The notes under the pieces: generated by a model
Databases searched by the model: none
What the model was told of the DNA's origin: nothing
Seen by the model: only the letters and a program-made list of their open reading frames with translations
Position numbers and translations under genes: made by a program
Virus record (IMG/VR): IMGVR_UViG_3300037606_000123
Location: 59,032-123,031 of that record
Strand: one strand, 5' to 3'
DNA length: 64,000 nt
Source: a virus
In this document: positions 7,125 to 49,104 of the stretch, piece after piece
How the letters are laid out: the number at the start of each line of letters is the position of its first letter
Position numbering within the stretch: position 1 is the stretch's first letter

Positions 7125-7976
7125 ATGGAAAATATAACATGTTTAAAACATAAACCCTATGATAATTTTAAGGTGTACCATCCAGATGGCACATTAATGT
7201 TTTTTTGTTCACATAGAAAAGTTAATTGGTATGTTAAAAATAATTTAGGTATTTTTTTAAATGATAAAGAATTAAAATTAACTTTTATACCTGGTGGATA
7301 TGGTGATCCAATATCAATATTAAAAGGTAGAAGTAATGCTTGTGTTGTTAATAATTCAATTAACGATTTAACTAAACACCACGTTGTTCCTACACAATTT
7401 AGAAAACATTTCAAATTAAAATATAAAGATAAAAATTCATTTGATTTATGTGTTTTAAATAGAAAAATACATGATGAATATGAATTACATGCAAATGAAT
7501 TTAAAGATATATTATTAACTGATATTATTAATATTGATGATATTGATATTAATATATCATGGTATACAGCAAAAACAATTTATAATACAATAATAAAACA
7601 TTTTGATAAAATTCCACCGTCAAAACAAGTATATTTACAATTGAAATTTGATGGTTTATGTGATAAATATAACTTTGATATTGATAAATTTAAAAATGAA
7701 TTTTCTCCATATAGTACAAATAATAATAAAAAAATAATAAAACAAGTAGGGACAGAAAATTTAATTGTACTTTGGAAATTACATTTTTTAAAATATGCTC
7801 AACCTAAATTTTTACCGGATTGGTGGAAACCTAATTTATTAAAAATTATTAATAGAACAACCAGTAAAAATATATGTAAAACAGAATTAAAAGAAATTGA
7901 CATGGTAAAAAATAAAAAATTATTTAAATTAATATTAAAATATAACTTAGATGAAATCGCCAGTTTATACATATAA
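7125..7976 (+). CDS. HNH-like protein resembling the EXD2 C-terminal domain
   Basis: PDG..MFFC..RKVNWY, CVVNN..LTKHHVVP..FRKHF..KDKNSFDL, and WKLHFL..QPKFLP..W. ATG 7125 is preferred to TTG 7116. Confidence 0.6.
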   Translation: MENITCLKHKPYDNFKVYHPDGTLMFFCSHRKVNWYVKNNLGIFLNDKELKLTFIPGGYGDPISILKGRSNACVVNNSINDLTKHHVVPTQFRKHFKLKYKDKNSFDLCVLNRKIHDEYELHANEFKDILLTDIINIDDIDINISWYTAKTIYNTIIKHFDKIPPSKQVYLQLKFDGLCDKYNFDIDKFKNEFSPYSTNNNKKIIKQVGTENLIVLWKLHFLKYAQPKFLPDWWKPNLLKIINRTTSKNICKTELKEIDMVKNKKLFKLILKYNLDEIASLYI

Positions 7977-8403
7977 AAAAGCAAATTACACGTACAATAT
8001 ACATGATACTTATACAGCAGGTATTATGTTAGAGGGGTGGGAAGTTAAAGCATTAGATTATCATAATGGTGATATTAATGTTAGTTATTGTACATTTAAA
8101 GGTAAAAACTTTATTTTATGTAATTGTATTATAAAACCAGATATTAAGCATGTGATTGATATTAAAACTATTTCAGATAAACAAGTACAAGAAAGAAAAT
8201 TATTATTAAATAAATCTGAAATTATAAAAATTAAATCTAAAATACAAATAAAAGGTTATACATGTATACCATTAAAATTATATAGAAACAATAATGGGTT
8301 ATGGAAATTAGATATTGCTTTAGTTACTGGAAAATCTAATTATGATAAAAGAAACACATTAAAAGAAAAAGATATTAAAAGAGATATAGATCGTAACATT
8401 TAA
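7951..8403 (+). CDS. smpB: SsrA-binding protein SmpB
   Basis: KKA.Y.Y.I...Y.AGI.L.G.EVK, RKLLL.K.EI, G.T.IPLKLY, and GK..YDKR..LKE.D.KR. Confidence 0.9.
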   Translation: MKSPVYTYKKANYTYNIHDTYTAGIMLEGWEVKALDYHNGDINVSYCTFKGKNFILCNCIIKPDIKHVIDIKTISDKQVQERKLLLNKSEIIKIKSKIQIKGYTCIPLKLYRNNNGLWKLDIALVTGKSNYDKRNTLKEKDIKRDIDRNI

Positions 8404-8432: not shown

Positions 8433-9020
8433 ATGAAAGAATTAATTTTAAACGCTATCAATTTTTTAAATATTAGTAACCCTAGTAATTTTTTACCATA
8501 TCACAATATAGATCATTTATGGATGGTTTATAATTATTGTCAAAAAATTACTGATATGATTAATAATTCAGATGTAAAAGAAACTGAGTTATTTATTGCT
8601 GCGTTATTTCATGATTATAATCATAGTGGTGGAAAATTGACAGATAATTTTAATATAGATAATGCTATAGAGGGCGTTACATTATTTCATAAAGCACATC
8701 CCGAATTTGATTTGAATTATGTTTCTTATTTAATTAAATGTACAGAATATCCATATTCTGTGTTAGATATAGATTTAACAATAGAAGCTAAAATTTTAAG
8801 GGATGCTGATTTGTCATATGTTTTTGAATATATAAGTATAGTAAAATTATATTGTGGTTTAAGAAAAGAATTTAATCAAACGTTAATATTATTTTTAAAT
8901 AATCAATTTAATTTTTTAAGTAATATTAATTTTTATATTCCGGAATTCCAAAATTTATGGAAAGGTGGAATACAAGAACTAAGATTACTAGAATTAGAAG
9001 AATTAAAAGCACATGTATAA
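8433..9020 (+). CDS. HD-domain phosphohydrolase
   Basis: PYHNIDH, ALFHDYNH and LRDADL motifs. Confidence 0.8.
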   Translation: MKELILNAINFLNISNPSNFLPYHNIDHLWMVYNYCQKITDMINNSDVKETELFIAALFHDYNHSGGKLTDNFNIDNAIEGVTLFHKAHPEFDLNYVSYLIKCTEYPYSVLDIDLTIEAKILRDADLSYVFEYISIVKLYCGLRKEFNQTLILFLNNQFNFLSNINFYIPEFQNLWKGGIQELRLLELEELKAHV

Positions 9021-19938: not shown

Positions 19939-20160
19939 ATGGCAACAAAATCAAAACACAGAAAAAATCACAAAGAGAAATTAGCAAAACGTAATACACG
20001 AATAGCAAATGAAAAAAAGATTCAAAATAAACGTATGCAAGAATACGTTAAACAATTAATGGCTGAACAAACGAATGAAAAATTAACGAGTGTAGCTGAA
20101 ACAACTGATCTTTCTTTCACAACAGATACAGAAAACCCAACAGATGAAACCAATATTTAA
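19939..20160 (+). CDS. Small basic hypothetical protein
   Basis: MATKSKHRKNH start at 19939 is preferred over the hydrophobic extension from 19840. Confidence 0.55.
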   Translation: MATKSKHRKNHKEKLAKRNTRIANEKKIQNKRMQEYVKQLMAEQTNEKLTSVAETTDLSFTTDTENPTDETNI

Positions 20161-20701
20161 TAATATTCAAAATAAAAAACTTGACACAGTAGATGGTGTC
20201 AAGTTTTTTTCTCGTTCTAGTGCCGTTGTAGCGCACATTTGGATAAAACAAGGTACAAGTACATTTGTTCTAATTGGTCAACGTGGTAACTCTGGTGATC
20301 AACCTTTTAAATTTAATATGCCATGTGGTTATATGGATTGGAATGAAACATTAGAAGAAGCATTATTTAGAGAAGTGTGGGAAGAATGTGGTTTAGATTT
20401 AAAAAACTTAATATTTGATAATAAAGTGTTGTTTAAAGCTATTGATCAACCATGGTCTGTTAATACAGATCCAAAAGAAAATAGAGAAAATATTTCTTTT
20501 CATTGTGGATTATTAATTGATATTGAAGATAAAACATTACCAGAATTATCTTTAGATAATATGGAACCAGATGAAGTATTAGGTATTAATTTTTGGGATT
20601 TAAATGTTGCTAAACGTATGAAAACATATGATTGGGCATTTAATCATAATGAAAGATTAATAGATTTTGAAAATTATTTAGAATCTAAATTTATATTATA
20701 A
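20144..20701 (+). CDS. Nudix hydrolase
   Basis: Intact Nudix box GYMDWNETLEEALFREVWEECGL. Confidence 0.9.
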   Translation: MKPIFNNIQNKKLDTVDGVKFFSRSSAVVAHIWIKQGTSTFVLIGQRGNSGDQPFKFNMPCGYMDWNETLEEALFREVWEECGLDLKNLIFDNKVLFKAIDQPWSVNTDPKENRENISFHCGLLIDIEDKTLPELSLDNMEPDEVLGINFWDLNVAKRMKTYDWAFNHNERLIDFENYLESKFIL

Positions 20702-34165: not shown

Positions 34166-34630
34166 ATGAAATTAATAAATCACAAAACGTATTTAGAAAT
34201 GGCTGATAAGTTATCTAACATTTCAAAATGTGCAAAACATAAAGTTGGCGCTTTAATCGTTAAAGATGGTAGAATTGTTAGTAATGGTGTAAATGGTACA
34301 CCAAGTGGTTTTACTAATTGTTGTGATAAATTCCATGATAGTGATTTACATATTGAACCAAAACGTACGGAACATAGAGAGTGGGCAGAAATTTATGAAA
34401 TACATGCAGAGATGAATGCTATCTTGTTTGCAGGTAAAAAAGGGGTAAGATTAGAAAACGCTACACTTTATTGTAATTTAGAACCATGTTTTAATTGTTT
34501 AAAACATGCAATAACTGTAGGTATTAAAACAATATACTATTCTAAAAAACATAAATCAAATATAGAATCAGAAGAAGCACTTAATTTAATAAATAAATTA
34601 AACATAAAAATTATCCATATTGAAATTTGA
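34166..34630 (+). CDS. dCMP deaminase
   Basis: KVGALIV..GRI.S.G.NG.P, HAEMNA and PCFNC zinc motifs. Confidence 0.92.
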   Translation: MKLINHKTYLEMADKLSNISKCAKHKVGALIVKDGRIVSNGVNGTPSGFTNCCDKFHDSDLHIEPKRTEHREWAEIYEIHAEMNAILFAGKKGVRLENATLYCNLEPCFNCLKHAITVGIKTIYYSKKHKSNIESEEALNLINKLNIKIIHIEI

Positions 34631-35151
34631 AAACATTACACATTAATTTTTGGGCCGGACCGGGCACAGGAAAATCAACAATTGCCGCAGCTATTTTTGC
34701 AAACTTAAAATGGTTAGATAAAGATTGTGAATTAATTAGTGAGTACGCTAAAGATATGGTTTGGGAAGAATCATTTAAAAAATTAACAAATCAGATTTAT
34801 ATTTTTAGTAAACAACACAAAAAACATTTTGTATTAGACGGTAAAGTTGATTATGTTATTACAGATTCAGCAATACCATTAACATGTATTTATGATAATG
34901 ATACAAAATATTTAAAAGAATTAGTATTATCAGAATTTAATAAGTTTAATAATTTAAACATTTTATTAAAACGCACAAAAAAATATAATACGAACGGACG
35001 GACACAAACCTTTGATGAAGCTATTAGTGTTGATAATAAGATACTAAACTTTATGAAAAATTGCCATATACCATATTATGAATTAGACGCAACACCCGAT
35101 TGTGTACAACAAATAATGGATATAATAAAAAATACCAAACCTATGATTTGA
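34627..35151 (+). CDS. NadR-like/AAA_28 P-loop kinase
   Basis: NFWAGPGTGKST, SEYAK, ITDS; TTG start overlapping the upstream TGA. Confidence 0.7.
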   Translation: MKTLHINFWAGPGTGKSTIAAAIFANLKWLDKDCELISEYAKDMVWEESFKKLTNQIYIFSKQHKKHFVLDGKVDYVITDSAIPLTCIYDNDTKYLKELVLSEFNKFNNLNILLKRTKKYNTNGRTQTFDEAISVDNKILNFMKNCHIPYYELDATPDCVQQIMDIIKNTKPMI

Positions 35152-35985: not shown

Positions 35986-36561
35986 ATGAATAAAATTATA
36001 TTTGTTGAAGGTGCTCGCAACGTTGGAAAAACGTTTCTTTTAGATAAATTAGATAATGATTACATTATTTATAAATTTCCATTCAGTCAATATTTTAATG
36101 AATTACATACATACAATATTAATGAAGAAAAACAAAAATTAAATTCAGACCCAAAGTTATTCTTTTTAACTTTGGGTTATGATATTACAATACTTGATTT
36201 AGCATCCAAAGGACTTCTTAAACAAGATTTATTTGTAGATAGAGGTATTATATCAGATTTAGTATTTGGAATACAAGCAGGACGTATAAATAAAGAATTT
36301 GCTATTGTTGTATTAAAATGGATCATTGAAAATTATGGTGATGTTTTTAAAATATTATATATTACAGCAGATAATAAAACAGATGAACGCGCTAAAGATG
36401 ATTGGAATCATTATGATAAATCATTATCAAATGAAATATTTTTTAATTTAATAAAAGATATTAATGTTTTTCCATATTATTTTAATAACGATTTTAATAA
36501 TGAATCAATTATTAGATTTAAAAAATGTGTTTCTAATATAACAACGGATATTATTTTTTAA
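35986..36561 (+). CDS. Deoxynucleoside monophosphate (thymidylate-type) kinase
   Basis: IFVEGARNVGKT P-loop and DRGIISD..F motif. Confidence 0.7.
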   Translation: MNKIIFVEGARNVGKTFLLDKLDNDYIIYKFPFSQYFNELHTYNINEEKQKLNSDPKLFFLTLGYDITILDLASKGLLKQDLFVDRGIISDLVFGIQAGRINKEFAIVVLKWIIENYGDVFKILYITADNKTDERAKDDWNHYDKSLSNEIFFNLIKDINVFPYYFNNDFNNESIIRFKKCVSNITTDIIF

Positions 36562-36948: not shown

Positions 36949-38115
36949 TTATATATTATTTTTATTTAATACATACAAAATTTGACCGCTATTTGACCAA
37001 TCTAAATATTCTTCTGTAATAATATCACATGCTTTAAAAATATGTAATTCTGTACGTTCTGTATCTTCAATATTACCAAATATTTGATTTTCTTTTGTTT
37101 TTAAAATATCAAATTCCAAATCAGATAATTGATATGAATACAACCAATTTTTATGTGTTAATAAAGTAGAACAAATTTGTCGTTCACCTTCAAATATAAG
37201 TTTTTCTATGTTTGGTTGAAATCCAGTTTCTTCTTCTAACTCTTCTATTATTCTTTCTTTAGGATCAACACCAGGTTTAACACTTGATCCACCAGGTAAT
37301 TCATAAACTAACCCTTTTGTATTATTAACTGGTGATCTGAATTCAGAAACTAATATAATTTCTGATTTTAGGAAATTTTCAGTGTTTAAATGATATAAAA
37401 CACATGAACTAATATCAGGTCTTGAAAAAACAAATTCATTATTTTTATATCTATTTTCTGATTTGATAAATATGTTAACCCATAAACTGAATGCGAATAT
37501 TTTATTATTAGATGGGATTCTATATGTTTTTAAAACTTTAGCATCTGAAATCCAATTACCATTACTACGTAATTGCTTGTACCATGATTGAAATTGATCT
37601 AGTTGCCATATTTCTTGTGGTATAAATCTTTCACCATCTAATCTTGAATAATTATCTTGTATGTCTATAATATGTCTAATACCATTAGATAATTCATGAA
37701 ATGCTGGTACTTTTAATTCTTTGGCCCACCATTCTTGATAACGAACTTTATCAGCTGTTAATTCAGTAATTAAAACACATTTACCTGAATCTTTCCAATA
37801 ACCCCATTCATCGTTAGTTGTTAAACCATATAATTCTGTATCTAAATTTCTATTAATATAAAATATAATATTGTCTGCAATTTTTAAACATTTACTTTCC
37901 CATAATATTTGTGTTTGATAATTTAAATCTTCAAAGTTTCCATCTTTACCTTCTGGTATAAAAACAACACCATCATATTCTAAAATTTCTAAAATTTTAA
38001 TTGCTTTTTCTCTCCAACTTACACCTTTTTGACCAGGTCTTAAACTAGGACCAGCTAAAAATATAGATTTACTTATTTCATTTGGTATTGCTTCTTGAGC
38101 ATATATTAATTTCAT
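36949..38115 (-). CDS. Nucleoside 2-deoxyribosyltransferase-like domain fused to a Nudix hydrolase
   Basis: SIFLAGP..SWRE..VFIPE..QILWE..L..AD.I.F N-domain; ELPGGS..EELEEETG C-domain. Confidence 0.75.
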   Translation of the reverse strand: MKLIYAQEAIPNEISKSIFLAGPSLRPGQKGVSWREKAIKILEILEYDGVVFIPEGKDGNFEDLNYQTQILWESKCLKIADNIIFYINRNLDTELYGLTTNDEWGYWKDSGKCVLITELTADKVRYQEWWAKELKVPAFHELSNGIRHIIDIQDNYSRLDGERFIPQEIWQLDQFQSWYKQLRSNGNWISDAKVLKTYRIPSNNKIFAFSLWVNIFIKSENRYKNNEFVFSRPDISSCVLYHLNTENFLKSEIILVSEFRSPVNNTKGLVYELPGGSSVKPGVDPKERIIEELEEETGFQPNIEKLIFEGERQICSTLLTHKNWLYSYQLSDLEFDILKTKENQIFGNIEDTERTELHIFKACDIITEEYLDWSNSGQILYVLNKNNI

Positions 38116-38316: not shown

Positions 38317-39159
38317 TTATATTGCCATTGGAACAGGTTTCATTTTACCATCGTGCTGGTAATTTAATAATTCAACATCAGAATATTGTAAATTACAAAT
38401 ATCTTCTAATGTATTTAATTCTTTATTAATTTTTAATGTTGGTAATGGATATGATTTTTTAGTTTTAAATTCATCATATTGTTCTAATCCATTTAAATAT
38501 AAATGTGTATCAGCTGATGTCATAACTAATTCACCCACTTCCATTTTTAAAGCGTGTGCTAAAAGATTTGTTAGTAAAGCATAACATTGCATATCATATG
38601 AAAAACCGTTCCATACATCTAAACTACGCATCAAAAATTGACAACTTAATTTATTATTTCTAACATAAAATGATGATATAATATGACATGGTGGTAATGC
38701 TGCTTCATGTAATCTTGCAGGATGCCATGCTGTCATAACCATTCTTCTATCTGTTGGATTATTTTTTAGTGTATTAAATATATTTTGTAATTGATCAACA
38801 CCATCAAAATTTCTCCATATTGCACCATAAGCATAACCAATATTACCAACTGGTAAATCAGTTAATCCTCTATTATCTAAAAATTCTCTACTTGTATTAC
38901 CTTTCCAAATATTTATATTATTATCTTCTAGCCATAACTTTGAATCAGATGAACCATTTAAAAACATCATTGTTTCGTAAAATGAAATTTTAAATGAGTG
39001 TTGTCTTTTAGTAAGAATCGGAAATCCTTCATGTAAATTTACTCTAATTTGTTGTGTAAATAATGATTTTGTGTTTATACCAGTTCTATTTTCCGATAAT
39101 TCACCATTTTTTAAAATATTATTTAATAATATCGTATACTGTTTGTCTAATTTATTCAT
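38317..39159 (-). CDS. thyA: Thymidylate synthase family enzyme with Asp at the E. coli Asn177 position
   Basis: GFPILTKR, YGAIWR, DRRM..AW, LPPCH, MRSLDVWNGFSYD, ADTHLY. Start at ATG 39159 (MNKLDKQY). Confidence 0.9.
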   Translation of the reverse strand: MNKLDKQYTILLNNILKNGELSENRTGINTKSLFTQQIRVNLHEGFPILTKRQHSFKISFYETMMFLNGSSDSKLWLEDNNINIWKGNTSREFLDNRGLTDLPVGNIGYAYGAIWRNFDGVDQLQNIFNTLKNNPTDRRMVMTAWHPARLHEAALPPCHIISSFYVRNNKLSCQFLMRSLDVWNGFSYDMQCYALLTNLLAHALKMEVGELVMTSADTHLYLNGLEQYDEFKTKKSYPLPTLKINKELNTLEDICNLQYSDVELLNYQHDGKMKPVPMAI

Positions 39160-47997: not shown

Positions 47998-49104
47998 ATG
48001 GATAATAATAATAAAATAATTAAAAAATGGAAACCAATAGTATCTACTATAGTGTTATCAGAAAATGTATCTATTGATAATATCAATGTAGAAAATATAT
48101 GTATTTTAATTGAATCACTAGCTATAAACGCAATTGATAATTCACTTAATGATAATAATTTTTTACCTAATTTATTATTATCTATTATTAGATTATATAA
48201 AACTGATGTTAAATTTACAATTAGTAATACAAATATAACTACACCAGAAACATATACATTAATGTTAATAGATGATATTGTAAAAGGAACATTACAAATA
48301 GATTTAGATTTAGCTTTGACTCAAGTATTTCAACAACATTCATACAATGTTTCTATAAATAATATTACATTTATTAATAATCAAATTATATTAAAATGTA
48401 CACCAAACACAACAAAAAAGAAATTTATTATACCAACAAATACATTATGCCCAATTAAGGCAGAACAAGAAATTGCTATGTTAATTGCAGATTATAAAGA
48501 TAATATAGCATTTGACAATACAACAGGCTTAATATATAATGACGGTTCCAAAGATTTACTACATTCAAATGAATATTGGTTTGCTGATTCTGGTGATAGT
48601 AAAACAATTAATAACGTAACACCGTTACCTAACTTTCAAGAGTGTTCACATTTAGAAATAGAGGATGTTTTTAACACATCTGAGAACACTTTAAAAGATT
48701 TATATAATCTACAGAAGGATATACAAGAAAATGTATATGGTTACGATTTTAATAAATTACAATCTGGTCCATTACCGGAGTTAAGACAATTTTGGGATTG
48801 GAATTATCATGCAATTCAAGACGAATTAAGAGAAGCATTTACAGCATTAGGTGGAATGTCTGATGGTATATCTAATGGTGTTTGGAAACCATGGAAAAAA
48901 TCATATACAGAACAAGCACCAAATATGACATATAATGATATGTCTGAACGTGATAAAAAAGAATTAAAAATGGAATTAATTGATATTCAACATTTTTTAT
49001 TCAATATCATGCTATCAGTCGGAATGACAGAACAAGAATTAATGAATTTTTATTTTGCAAAAAATCAAGAAAACCGCCGAAGAAATGCTAGTGGTACTTA
49101 TTAA
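47998..49104 (+). CDS. Chimeric protein: capsid-N-terminus-like + portal-clip copy + dimeric dUTPase/dCTPase (gp56-like)
   Basis: KWKPIV N-terminus as in gp23; 48421-48592 copies portal 56501-56672; C-terminal all-alpha dUTPase motifs LQ..IQ, DEL.E, WKPWK, ELIDIQHF, KN.EN..R. Confidence 0.85.
   Translation: MDNNNKIIKKWKPIVSTIVLSENVSIDNINVENICILIESLAINAIDNSLNDNNFLPNLLLSIIRLYKTDVKFTISNTNITTPETYTLMLIDDIVKGTLQIDLDLALTQVFQQHSYNVSINNITFINNQIILKCTPNTTKKKFIIPTNTLCPIKAEQEIAMLIADYKDNIAFDNTTGLIYNDGSKDLLHSNEYWFADSGDSKTINNVTPLPNFQECSHLEIEDVFNTSENTLKDLYNLQKDIQENVYGYDFNKLQSGPLPELRQFWDWNYHAIQDELREAFTALGGMSDGISNGVWKPWKKSYTEQAPNMTYNDMSERDKKELKMELIDIQHFLFNIMLSVGMTEQELMNFYFAKNQENRRRNASGTY
48421..48592 (+). repeat. 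Dispersed inverted repeat of portal gene segment 56501-56672
   Basis: About 21 mismatches in 172 nt by hand alignment, with a 46-nt identical run at 48459-48504. Confidence 0.95.

What the first reader, a model, noticed from the sequence alone, without database searches (positions are those of the whole stretch)
38317..39159. Thymidylate synthase with the cytosine-specificity Asp: possible modified-cytosine genome or new dTMP route
The segment RSLDVWNGFSYDMQCYALL aligns with E. coli [19 protein letters not shown], putting Asp (GAT, plus-strand 38593-38595) at Asn177. Asn selects dUMP; Asp is found in T4 dCMP hydroxymethylase, and the Asn-to-Asp mutant of TS methylates dCMP. The preceding MRS also resembles the hydroxymethylases. 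The window also has a gp56-family dUTPase/dCTPase, a dNMP kinase and a dCMP deaminase. Two inferences follow: the DNA carries 5-methyl- or 5-hydroxymethyl-C, or dTMP is made via dCMP to 5m-dCMP to dTMP. A canonical td elsewhere in the genome cannot be excluded.
Basis: partly seen in the sequence, partly recalled or inferred. Interest (0 to 1): 0.75.

Follow-up and report, generated by a model that had tools for sequence, protein, structure and literature searches.

The report
Predicted dCMP methylase in giant phage
A giant T4-like phage from a salt lake has a thymidylate-synthase gene whose base-selecting asparagine is replaced by aspartate, so it most likely methylates dCMP to build 5-methylcytosine DNA, a strategy already known from phage Xp12 and from metagenome screens.

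Summary
Window 38317-39159 (-) encodes a 280-aa, full-length thymidylate synthase (TS). Residue 189 (GAT, 38593-38595) is Asp where E. coli ThyA has Asn177. Asp is invariant in about 30 close metagenomic homologues. It is absent from the Asn sister sequence, from the other 91 neighbours, and from 121 of 124 scorable library representatives.

Published diagnostic residues point to a methyl product. Leu143, Asp169 and the C-terminal tail that seals the active site are all kept, which argues against a hydroxymethyl or hydroxy product.

The clade is nested inside ordinary viral TSs and lies far from T4 gp42, RB69 gp48 and the PaMx74 enzyme. This is therefore an independent Asn-to-Asp switch on a canonical scaffold.

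The context fits:
- a T4 gp56-type dCTPase;
- a T4 Cd-type dCMP deaminase, directly adjacent to the TS in a related contig;
- a thymidylate-kinase-fold kinase.

No second TS, ThyX or DHFR is present in the 123 kb held, which is about 31% of the genome.

This scan has also noted Asn177Asp ThyA homologues in at least 54 other genomes.

Verdict: a sound, testable prediction and a new member of a known kind. No enzyme assay or DNA chemistry has been done.

The parts
38317..39159 (-). Thymidylate-synthase-family gene (P0001, 280 aa), predicted dCMP C5-methyltransferase (5-methyl-dCMP synthase)
   Evidence: PF00303 E 6.5e-75. AlphaFold2 model has pLDDT 94.4 and TM 0.93-0.94, rmsd 1.3 A, to eukaryote- and virus-type TS complexes. 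Signature residues are tabulated.
38593..38595 (-). GAT codon for Asp189, the E. coli Asn177 / L. casei Asn229 position that selects the pyrimidine
   Evidence: Invariant in the 27-sequence clade alignment A1. It is one transition away from AAT (Asn) in a 24% G+C genome.
38620..38622 (-). Codon for Leu180 (E. coli Cys168 position). After Asp189 it is the second most clade-specific active-site residue.
   Evidence: Leu in all 28 clade members against 1% of Asn-type relatives. Position 168 lies within 6 A of C5 of dUMP according to PMC13326640.
38686..38688 (-). Codon for the catalytic Cys158 (E. coli Cys146) in the motif AALPPCH. Leu155 (=Leu143) and His159 (=His147) are both kept.
34166..34630 (+). 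T4 Cd-type dCMP deaminase, the proposed source of thymidine nucleotides
   Evidence: PHROG 174 E 2e-47. Best solved relatives are T4 Cd 1VQ2 (E 2e-28) and cyanophage S-TIM5 4P9C. Its homologue in L012 starts 7 nt after the TS stop codon.
35986..36561 (+). P-loop kinase with a thymidylate-kinase / deoxycytidine-kinase fold, candidate kinase for 5-methyl-dCMP (substrate unknown)
   Evidence: No Pfam, NCBIfam or PHROG family beyond a weak AAA_14 hit. AlphaFold2 model has pLDDT 83, and Foldseek's best matches are Tmk and dCK at TM about 0.6, E about 1e-5. Atlas leads agree. It is conserved next to the TS block in L012.
47998..49104 (+). Protein whose C-terminal domain (about residues 213-365) is a T4 gp56-type dCTPase/dUTPase
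   Evidence: PHROG 173 E 4.4e-15. It matches T4 gene 56 (E 1.3e-20) and its RB69 counterpart (E 1.7e-22).
36949..38115 (-). Conserved neighbour: nucleoside-2-deoxyribosyltransferase-like (PF15891) domain fused to a Nudix-like domain. Its role in the pathway is unknown.
   Evidence: PF15891 E 2.9e-9. 68% identical copy near the TS in L012. The family is broad (612 homologues) and not restricted to Asp-type TS phages.

Best explanation
The gene encodes a natural Asn177Asp thymidylate synthase that methylates dCMP instead of dUMP, using 5,10-methylene-tetrahydrofolate and releasing dihydrofolate.

Inferred pathway:
1. The gp56-type dCTPase converts dCTP/dCDP to dCMP. This removes the competing precursor and feeds the methylase.
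2. The Asp189 enzyme makes 5-methyl-dCMP. Cys158 attacks C6, and Asp189 binds and protonates N3/N4 of cytosine. Leu155 and the C-terminal tail keep water out, so the exocyclic methylene is reduced by hydride transfer.
3. The thymidylate-kinase-fold kinase and host NDP kinase raise the product to 5-methyl-dCTP, which the phage polymerase incorporates. The DNA then carries 5-methylcytosine in place of cytosine.
4. The T4 Cd-type deaminase supplies thymidine nucleotides. It either deaminates 5-methyl-dC nucleotides directly or makes dUMP for a host or an unseen phage TS.

Shown here: the residues, their conservation, the phylogenetic position, the fold and the gene context. Inferred: every catalytic step and the DNA chemistry.
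For: (1) Asp at the Asn177 position is invariant through a clade that has diverged to 55% identity. It is absent from the Asn sister P0028 and from all other near relatives.

(2) The switch comes with a remodelled loop. RSVDVYLGLPYN in the sister becomes RSLDVWNGFSYD here. Position 168 is Leu in 100% of clade members against 1% of relatives, and Pro175 becomes Gly or Ser. This points to a functional shift rather than a tolerated substitution.

(3) Published signatures:
- N177D indicates a dCMP substrate.
- A bulky residue at position 143 goes with a methyl product, and D/E there with hydroxymethyl.
- D169N marks 5-hydroxy-dCMP synthases (PMC13326640).
- The C-terminal tail seals the site for methylation and is missing in T4 dCH (PMC6400193).
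P0001 has Leu143, Asp169, Glu58, Trp80, Tyr94, Arg166 and the tail ...PVPMAI.

(4) A single Asn-to-Asp change in canonical TSs switches them to dCMP and yields 5-methyl-dCMP (Liu & Santi 1992 and Hardy & Nalivaika 1992, as summarised in PMC8670742).

(5) The model is a complete canonical TS, with TM 0.93-0.94 and rmsd 1.3 A to ternary-complex structures.

(6) Context:
- gp56 homologue.
- Deaminase 3.7 kb away here, and 7 nt downstream of the TS in relative L012. In the preprint's data, 70% of deaminases on cytosine-modified contigs lie within 3 kb of a TS, against 6% on unmodified contigs, and five of seven such TSs made 5mdC in vivo (10.1101/2024.12.05.627091).
- Kinase of Tmk/dCK fold.

(7) There is no second PF00303 gene and no ThyX in 123 kb, and no second PF00303 in the 78-kb relative.

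(8) Pfam detects no glycosyltransferase, TET/JBP or DNA C5-methyltransferase in any of the 123-kb ORFs. This fits a plain methyl end product.
Against: - There is no biochemical or DNA-chemistry evidence at all.
- His147 is kept. It was the second most discriminating position between modified and unmodified contigs in MetaGPA (PMC8670742). It is Thr or Pro in T4 gp42, RB69 gp48 and the PaMx74 TS.
- A methylase releases dihydrofolate, yet no DHFR is found in the 123 kb. The Xp12-group phages do encode one (PMC9206674).
- Only about 31% of the genome is held. A canonical td, a DHFR or hypermodification genes could lie in the rest.
- The deaminase is closest to T4 Cd, which in T4 simply feeds dUMP to td.
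- The kinase's substrate is unknown, and it is not a T4 gp1 homologue.
- Gene context is available for only two contigs.
- The tree is the quick IQ-TREE search, because the careful search did not finish.
Confidence: 0.62

Rival explanations
1. Cytosine-first thymidylate route only. The enzyme makes 5-methyl-dCMP, but all of it is deaminated to dTMP/dTTP, and the DNA keeps ordinary cytosine.
For: The TS and deaminase are coupled, with a 7-nt gap in L012. There is a single TS homologue and no ThyX in 123 kb. The same route is proposed in 10.1101/2024.12.05.627091.
Against: A T4 gp56-type dCTPase is present. In T4 its job is to remove dCTP from the pool, which makes little sense if dCTP is still the polymerase substrate. 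A dedicated extra kinase sits in the block. In Xp12 the route coexists with full 5mC substitution.
Confidence: 0.12
2. Dual-specificity or still uracil-directed TS. Asp189 is tolerated, and the enzyme makes dTMP from dUMP, alone or alongside 5-methyl-dCMP.
For: Apart from the 180-189 loop the active site is that of a normal TS, including His147, Leu143 and the tail. The deaminase is of the T4 Cd type, which makes dUMP. No other TS is visible.
Against: Asn is otherwise universal at this position among relatives. Asp is fixed across a diverged clade even though it is one transition from Asn in an AT-rich genome. Five of ten loop residues changed together with it. Engineered Asn-to-Asp TSs switch to dCMP (PMC8670742).
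Confidence: 0.13
3. dCMP hydroxymethylase. It would make 5-hydroxymethyl-dCMP as T4 gp42 does, possibly with later glycosylation.
For: Asp at position 177 is shared with gp42. The phage is T4-like and has gp56.
Against: Position 143 is Leu, not Asp or Glu. The C-terminal tail is present (PMC13326640, PMC6400193). The protein is far from gp42 in the tree. Pfam finds no glycosyltransferase in 123 kb, though that is weak evidence because most of the genome is missing.
Confidence: 0.08
4. Flavin-dependent 5-hydroxy-dCMP synthase of the RB69 gp48 / DLP3 gp80 type.
For: Asp at position 177 and a T4-like background.
Against: The diagnostic D169N is absent, since RSLD keeps Asp. Position 143 is Leu, not Glu. 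Trp80 and Gly173 are kept, unlike in gp48 (PMC13326640).
Confidence: 0.02

Closest known systems
Deoxycytidylate 5-methyltransferase (TS homologue) of Xanthomonas phage Xp12 and Pseudomonas phage PaMx74 (Pamexvirus group), whose DNA has C fully replaced by 5mC
   Same: Both are TS-family enzymes with Asp at position 177 and Asp at position 169. Both are linked to a dCMP-deaminase-family gene and an NTP pyrophosphohydrolase. The predicted product is 5-methyl-dCMP.
   Different: The lineages are separate: the PaMx74 TS sits on a very long branch outside all canonical TSs. PaMx74 has Pro at position 147, an insertion before the catalytic Cys and no TS-type C-terminus. P0001 keeps His147 and the ...PMAI tail. 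The hosts differ too: siphoviruses of about 60 kb and 67% G+C with a DHFR, against a T4-like giant phage of 24% G+C with a gp56-type dCTPase and no DHFR seen.
Engineered L. casei N229D and E. coli N177D thymidylate synthases (Liu & Santi 1992; Hardy & Nalivaika 1992)
   Same: Both have a canonical TS scaffold with His147, Leu143 and the C-terminal tail, and only the Asn-to-Asp change at the specificity position. The mutants methylate dCMP (as summarised in PMC8670742).
   Different: The natural clade carries additional fixed changes around the Asp: 168 Leu, 172 Asn/His, 175 Gly/Ser and 183 Trp. The mutants lack these. The activity of the natural enzyme is untested.
TS homologues paired with 5mC-selective deaminases from MetaGPA viromes (for example the mSCD-B5 contig; bioRxiv 10.1101/2024.12.05.627091)
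   Same: Both have an N177D TS next to a PF00383 deaminase. Five of seven such TSs made 5mdC in vivo, and dTTP was proposed to arise by deamination of 5-methyl-dCTP.
   Different: mSCD-B5 is structurally closest to the PBCV-1 dCMP/dCTP deaminase. The window's deaminase is closest to T4 Cd.
T4 gp42 dCMP hydroxymethylase
   Same: Both have Asp at the specificity position, the catalytic Cys, Glu58 and Arg166-Ser167. Both sit in a T4-like phage with gp56.
   Different: gp42 has Asp at position 143, Thr at 147 and no C-terminal tail, and it is very divergent in sequence. It makes hydroxymethyl rather than methyl (PMC6400193).
RB69 gp48 / DLP3 gp80 5-hydroxy-dCMP synthases
   Same: Both are TS homologues with Asp at position 177.
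   Different: gp48 has D169N and L143E and has lost Trp80 and Gly173. P0001 has none of these changes (PMC13326640).

Membership tests
Thymidylate synthase / dCMP hydroxymethylase superfamily (Pfam PF00303) | Significant full-length match to the family profile and the TS fold | tested here: met
   PF00303 E 6.5e-75 over profile positions 1-261 of 266. The model has pLDDT 94.4 and TM 0.93-0.94 to solved TSs.
Thymidylate synthase / dCMP hydroxymethylase superfamily (Pfam PF00303) | Catalytic Cys146, the phosphate-binding Arg166-Ser167 and Arg126/127 pair, Glu58 and Tyr94 | tested here: met
   Cys158, Arg178-Ser179, Arg138-Arg139 (invariant in A1), Glu62 and Tyr111.
Canonical dUMP-methylating thymidylate synthase (EC 2.1.1.45) | Asn at position 177, which hydrogen-bonds O4/N3 of uracil | tested here: not met
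   Asp189 (GAT).
Canonical dUMP-methylating thymidylate synthase (EC 2.1.1.45) | His147, Leu143 and a C-terminal tail ending in a small hydrophobic residue | tested here: met
   His159, Leu155 and the terminus ...KPVPMAI.
dCMP 5-methyltransferase (Xp12 / PaMx74 type, EC 2.1.1.54) | Asp at position 177 together with Asp169 and a non-acidic, bulky residue at position 143 | tested here: met
   Asp189, Asp181 and Leu155. The criteria are those of PMC13326640.
dCMP 5-methyltransferase (Xp12 / PaMx74 type, EC 2.1.1.54) | Replacement of His147, the second discriminating position in MetaGPA | tested here: not met
   His159 is kept. PaMx74 has Pro, and gp42 and gp48 have Thr (PMC8670742).
dCMP 5-methyltransferase (Xp12 / PaMx74 type, EC 2.1.1.54) | Common descent with the Xp12 / PaMx74 enzyme | tested here: not met
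   The Asp clade is sister to an Asn TS and is nested (SH-aLRT 99) among Asn-type viral TSs. The PaMx74 TS lies outside all of them (quick tree).
dCMP 5-methyltransferase (Xp12 / PaMx74 type, EC 2.1.1.54) | Module partners: a dCMP-deaminase-family gene and a dCTP-removing pyrophosphohydrolase nearby | tested here: met
   The deaminase is 3.7 kb away here and 7 nt away in L012. The gp56-type dCTPase is about 9 kb away. DHFR, present in the Xp12 group, was not found.
dCMP 5-methyltransferase (Xp12 / PaMx74 type, EC 2.1.1.54) | Enzyme converts dCMP to 5-methyl-dCMP, and virion DNA carries 5mC | not testable with these tools
   This needs an enzyme assay or an in vivo LC-MS assay, plus analysis of native DNA.
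T4-type dCMP hydroxymethylase (EC 2.1.2.8) | Acidic residue (Asp/Glu) at position 143 and loss of the TS C-terminal tail | tested here: not met
   Leu155 and the tail are both present (PMC13326640, PMC6400193).
5-hydroxy-dCMP synthase (RB69 gp48 type) | Asn at position 169 (D169N) | tested here: not met
   Asp181 in RSLD is invariant in the clade.

The most novel reading that the evidence does not exclude
In this lineage of roughly 400-kb T4-like phages, the phage's own td gene, rather than a duplicate or an acquired Xp12-type gene, was converted into a dCMP methylase. The conversion involved Asn177Asp plus a remodelled 168-177 loop. These phages would then have fully 5-methylcytosine DNA and no dUMP-dependent thymidylate synthesis. 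All their thymine would come from deamination of 5-methyl-dC nucleotides by a T4 Cd-type deaminase. That would be a natural replay of the Liu-Santi experiment, and the first T4-like phage with 5mC-substituted DNA that I know of.
Probability: 0.25. Interest if true: 0.55.

Novelty: new member of a known kind. Interest (0 to 1): 0.36.

Why it matters
If confirmed, this would add 5-methylcytosine to the cytosine replacements used by T4-like giant phages; hydroxymethyl, glucosyl-hydroxymethyl and arabinosyl-hydroxy forms are already known.

It would also show that the dUMP-to-dCMP switch has arisen more than once, directly from an ordinary viral thymidylate synthase. The set of co-varying residues (168 Leu, 172 Asn/His, 175 Gly/Ser) could refine residue-based prediction of TS products in metagenomes.

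In practice, such DNA resists many restriction enzymes and would be partly misread by methylation-sensitive sequencing chemistries.

The gain is modest. The enzyme class, the deaminase coupling and the residue code are already published, and this scan has flagged the same signature in many other genomes.

Tried and rejected
The genomic context of most Asp-clade homologues could therefore not be fetched. I have context for only two contigs, the window and L012.
- Matching contig lengths suggests that the TS and the PF15891-Nudix fusion share at least five further contigs. This is a proxy, not proof.
The nearest, L092, is the Asn sister on a 1.1-kb contig. None of the fetched Asn-type loci shares the window's neighbourhood. 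I therefore could not test whether the Asp gene occupies the ancestral td locus.
- The phage collection holds no Asp-clade member. The best hits (Xoo-sp13, XacN1, and Salicola SCTP-2 from a saltern) are 40-43% identical, and the two I read (Xoo-sp13, SCTP-2) carry Asn. There is no DNA-level match.
- No T4 gp1-type dNMP kinase was found. The P-loop ORF has no match in T4, RB69 or PaMx74, and a profile search of PDB sequences gave nothing. Only the fold search was informative.
- PHROG scans left most window ORFs unnamed.
- No ThyX, DHFR, glycosyltransferase, TET/JBP or DNA C5-methyltransferase turned up in the 123 kb.
- I tested whether the 200-bp gap between the TS and the fusion gene is a remnant of the 181-aa ORF found at that place in L012. 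The result was inconclusive (E 1.7 over 13 aa).
- The careful maximum-likelihood search did not finish in the time allowed, so the quick tree is reported.
- I considered restriction-site or dinucleotide statistics as a proxy for modification. I did not run them, because they cannot be interpreted without knowing the host.

Full report
**What is there.** The window is the right half of a 123,031-bp IMG/VR virus contig. CheckV rates it about 31% complete, and it has 24% G+C. It carries T4-type replication and head genes: gp47/SbcD, gp46, gp32, clamp loader, DNA polymerase, portal and head protease.

On the minus strand, 38317-39159 encodes a 280-aa protein, P0001. It matches Pfam PF00303 nearly end to end (E 6.5e-75). 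The NCBIfam thymidylate synthase (TS) equivalog TIGR03284 scores above its cut-off, and PHROG 160 matches as well. An AlphaFold2 model built on 27 clade members has pLDDT 94.4. It superposes on eukaryote- and virus-type TS ternary complexes at TM 0.93-0.94 and rmsd 1.3 A. This is a complete, canonical TS scaffold.

**The observation.** HMMER alignments to solved TSs place ...MRSLDVWNGFSYDMQCYALL... opposite ...[20 protein letters not shown].... Residue 189 is therefore Asp where E. coli has Asn177.

Asp is rare in this neighbourhood of the family and fixed within one clade:
- It is present in P0002-P0027 and P0029 (55-84% identity). It is also in the IMG/VR relative L012, in two intein-bearing homologues and in one fragment.
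- The sister sequence P0028 and the 91 further neighbours all have Asn.
- 121 of 124 scorable 50%-identity representatives have Asn, and the three exceptions are clade members.
- GAT is one transition from AAT in a very AT-rich genome, so its retention implies selection.
Most Asn-type relatives also read MRS.

**What the residues predict.** Lee et al. (NAR 2026, PMC13326640) list the residues within 6 A of C5 and give a residue code backed by in vivo assays:
- N177D indicates a dCMP substrate.
- A bulky hydrophobic residue at position 143 goes with a methyl product, and Asp or Glu there with hydroxymethyl.
- D169N marks the newly found flavin-dependent 5-hydroxy-dCMP synthases.

The T4 dCH ternary complex (PMC6400193) adds a further point. 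The TS C-terminal tail seals the site for hydride transfer, and the hydroxymethylase lacks it.

In an alignment with T4 gp42, RB69 gp48, RB69 td, the PaMx74 TS and a bacterial ThyA, P0001 has Leu at 143, His at 147, Asp at 169, Glu58, Trp80, Tyr94, Arg166-Ser167 and the tail ...PVPMAI. The only active-site departures from a normal TS lie in the loop that carries the Asp. The code therefore reads 'dCMP in, methyl out'. The same outcome was obtained when Asn229 of the L. casei enzyme or Asn177 of the E. coli enzyme was mutated to Asp (Liu & Santi 1992; Hardy & Nalivaika 1992, as summarised in PMC8670742).

One published marker is not met. His147 was the second most discriminating position in MetaGPA, and it is retained here.

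**A remodelled loop, not a lone substitution.** A differential-conservation scan of the 28 Asp sequences against the 92 Asn sequences ranks position 189 first and position 180 second. Position 180 corresponds to E. coli Cys168; it is Leu in all Asp sequences and in 1% of the others. Set against the Asn sister (P0028/L092: RSVDVYLGLPYN), the clade reads RSLDVWNGFSYD, so five of ten loop residues differ. This argues for a real change of function.

**Origin.** In a quick maximum-likelihood tree (the careful search did not finish), the 29 Asp sequences form one group (SH-aLRT 93). They are sister to the Asn sequence P0028 and are nested (99) among Asn-type viral TSs, including that of Xanthomonas jumbo phage Xoo-sp13. 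T4 gp42, RB69 gp48 and the PaMx74 enzyme lie far outside on very long branches. The Asn-to-Asp switch here is therefore independent of the known cytosine-directed lineages.

**Context.**
- *dCTPase.* The C-terminal domain of the 368-aa protein at 47998-49104 is homologous to T4 gp56 (E 1e-20) and its RB69 counterpart. T4 gp56 is annotated as removing dCTP/dCDP and supplying dCMP.
- *Deaminase.* 34166-34630 encodes a dCMP deaminase closest to T4 Cd.
- *Kinase.* 35986-36561 encodes a P-loop protein with no family assignment and no T4 homologue. Its model (pLDDT 83) best matches thymidylate kinases and deoxycytidine kinase. It is a plausible kinase for the modified nucleotide, but this is unproven.
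- *Related contig.* In L012 (78 kb, 24% G+C, TS 78% identical), the deaminase starts 7 nt after the TS stop codon. A thioredoxin, the PF15891-Nudix fusion, the kinase and the exonuclease follow.
- *Literature link.* The TS-deaminase coupling is the pattern that the NEB preprint found enriched on cytosine-modified viral contigs (70% against 6%). Five of seven such TSs made 5mdC in vivo there. The deaminases were proposed to make dTTP from 5-methyl-dCTP, as earlier isotope work suggested for Xp12.
- *Absences.* The 123 kb holds no second PF00303 gene, ThyX or DHFR, and the 78-kb relative has no second PF00303 gene. Pfam detects no glycosyltransferase, TET/JBP or DNA C5-methyltransferase. Because most of the genome is missing, these absences are weak evidence.

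**Interpretation.** The best-supported reading is a dCMP C5-methyltransferase feeding 5-methyl-dCTP into phage DNA. gp56 would clear dCTP, and the deaminase would supply thymidine nucleotides. My confidence is about 0.6 for 'dCMP to 5-methyl-dCMP' and lower for full substitution in the virion. The rivals are:
- a cytosine-first thymidylate route without modified DNA;
- a dual or still uracil-directed TS;
- a hydroxymethylase;
- a 5-hydroxy-dCMP synthase.
The last two fail tested signature residues.

**Novelty.** The enzyme class (Xp12, PaMx74, MetaGPA contigs), the residue code and the deaminase route are all published. The notes of this scan hold the same Asn177Asp signature in at least 54 other genomes, including Patescibacteria and a Salmonella/E. 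coli phage. Three things are particular here:
- the independent origin on a fully canonical scaffold with His147 retained;
- the co-varying loop residues;
- the setting in a giant T4-like, gp56-bearing phage.
I file it as a new member of a known kind, of moderate interest, with simple decisive experiments.

**Limits.** The tree is the quick search. No tool can test activity or DNA modification.

Noticed in passing
P0121 and P0122 (metagenomic homologues of the window's TS): Two Asp-clade TS homologues of about 645 aa carry LAGLIDADG-type inteins at different sites. In P0122 the intein sits exactly at the catalytic cysteine (ALPP|C...HN|CH). In P0121 it sits inside the GYAYG motif next to Tyr94 (GY|C...HN|CYG).
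   Followed up: partly
L012:10001-13334 (IMGVR_UViG_3300033068_000523): In the related 78-kb contig the gene order is TS, deaminase (7-nt gap), a thioredoxin (WCGPC), a 181-aa 'MITTINEFK'-tagged ORF, then the PF15891-Nudix fusion. In the window the deaminase has moved 3.7 kb away onto the other strand, the thioredoxin is absent, and only about 200 bp lie between the TS and the fusion. The two deaminases are only 51% identical, against 78% for the TSs.
   Followed up: partly
window 36949-38115 (-): The nucleoside-2-deoxyribosyltransferase-like plus Nudix-like fusion belongs to a large family: 612 homologues of about 388 aa, many on contigs of 200-450 kb. Judged by matching contig lengths, it shares contigs with Asp-clade TSs. 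The family is much broader than that clade, so it is not specific to the Asn-to-Asp switch.
   Followed up: partly
G000:C1:43330-43776 (-), 15 kb upstream of the window (locus L178): An NT5C-family 5'(3')-deoxyribonucleotidase homologue (PF06941, E 2.8e-9). This is a pyrimidine deoxynucleotide phosphatase that could also shape the dNMP pool. Its substrate is unknown.
   Followed up: no
window 7951-8403 (+): The phage encodes an SmpB homologue (PF01668, E 8.5e-41), the protein partner of tmRNA in ribosome rescue. It lies close to the tRNA gene blocks noted by others.
   Followed up: no
window 34756-35151 (+): A 131-aa ORF just downstream of the deaminase has a weak match to a PHROG annotated as thymidylate kinase (phrog_2107, E 3.3e-6). 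It may be a second small nucleotide-kinase-like gene in the block.
   Followed up: no
window 20144-20701 (+) and 8433-9020 (+): Two further nucleotide hydrolase candidates: a MutT/Nudix protein (phrog_1198, E 3e-13) and a 'phosphohydrolase' (phrog_16069, E 4e-26). An HD-domain Pfam hit was tallied somewhere among the window's ORFs but was not mapped to a gene.
   Followed up: no
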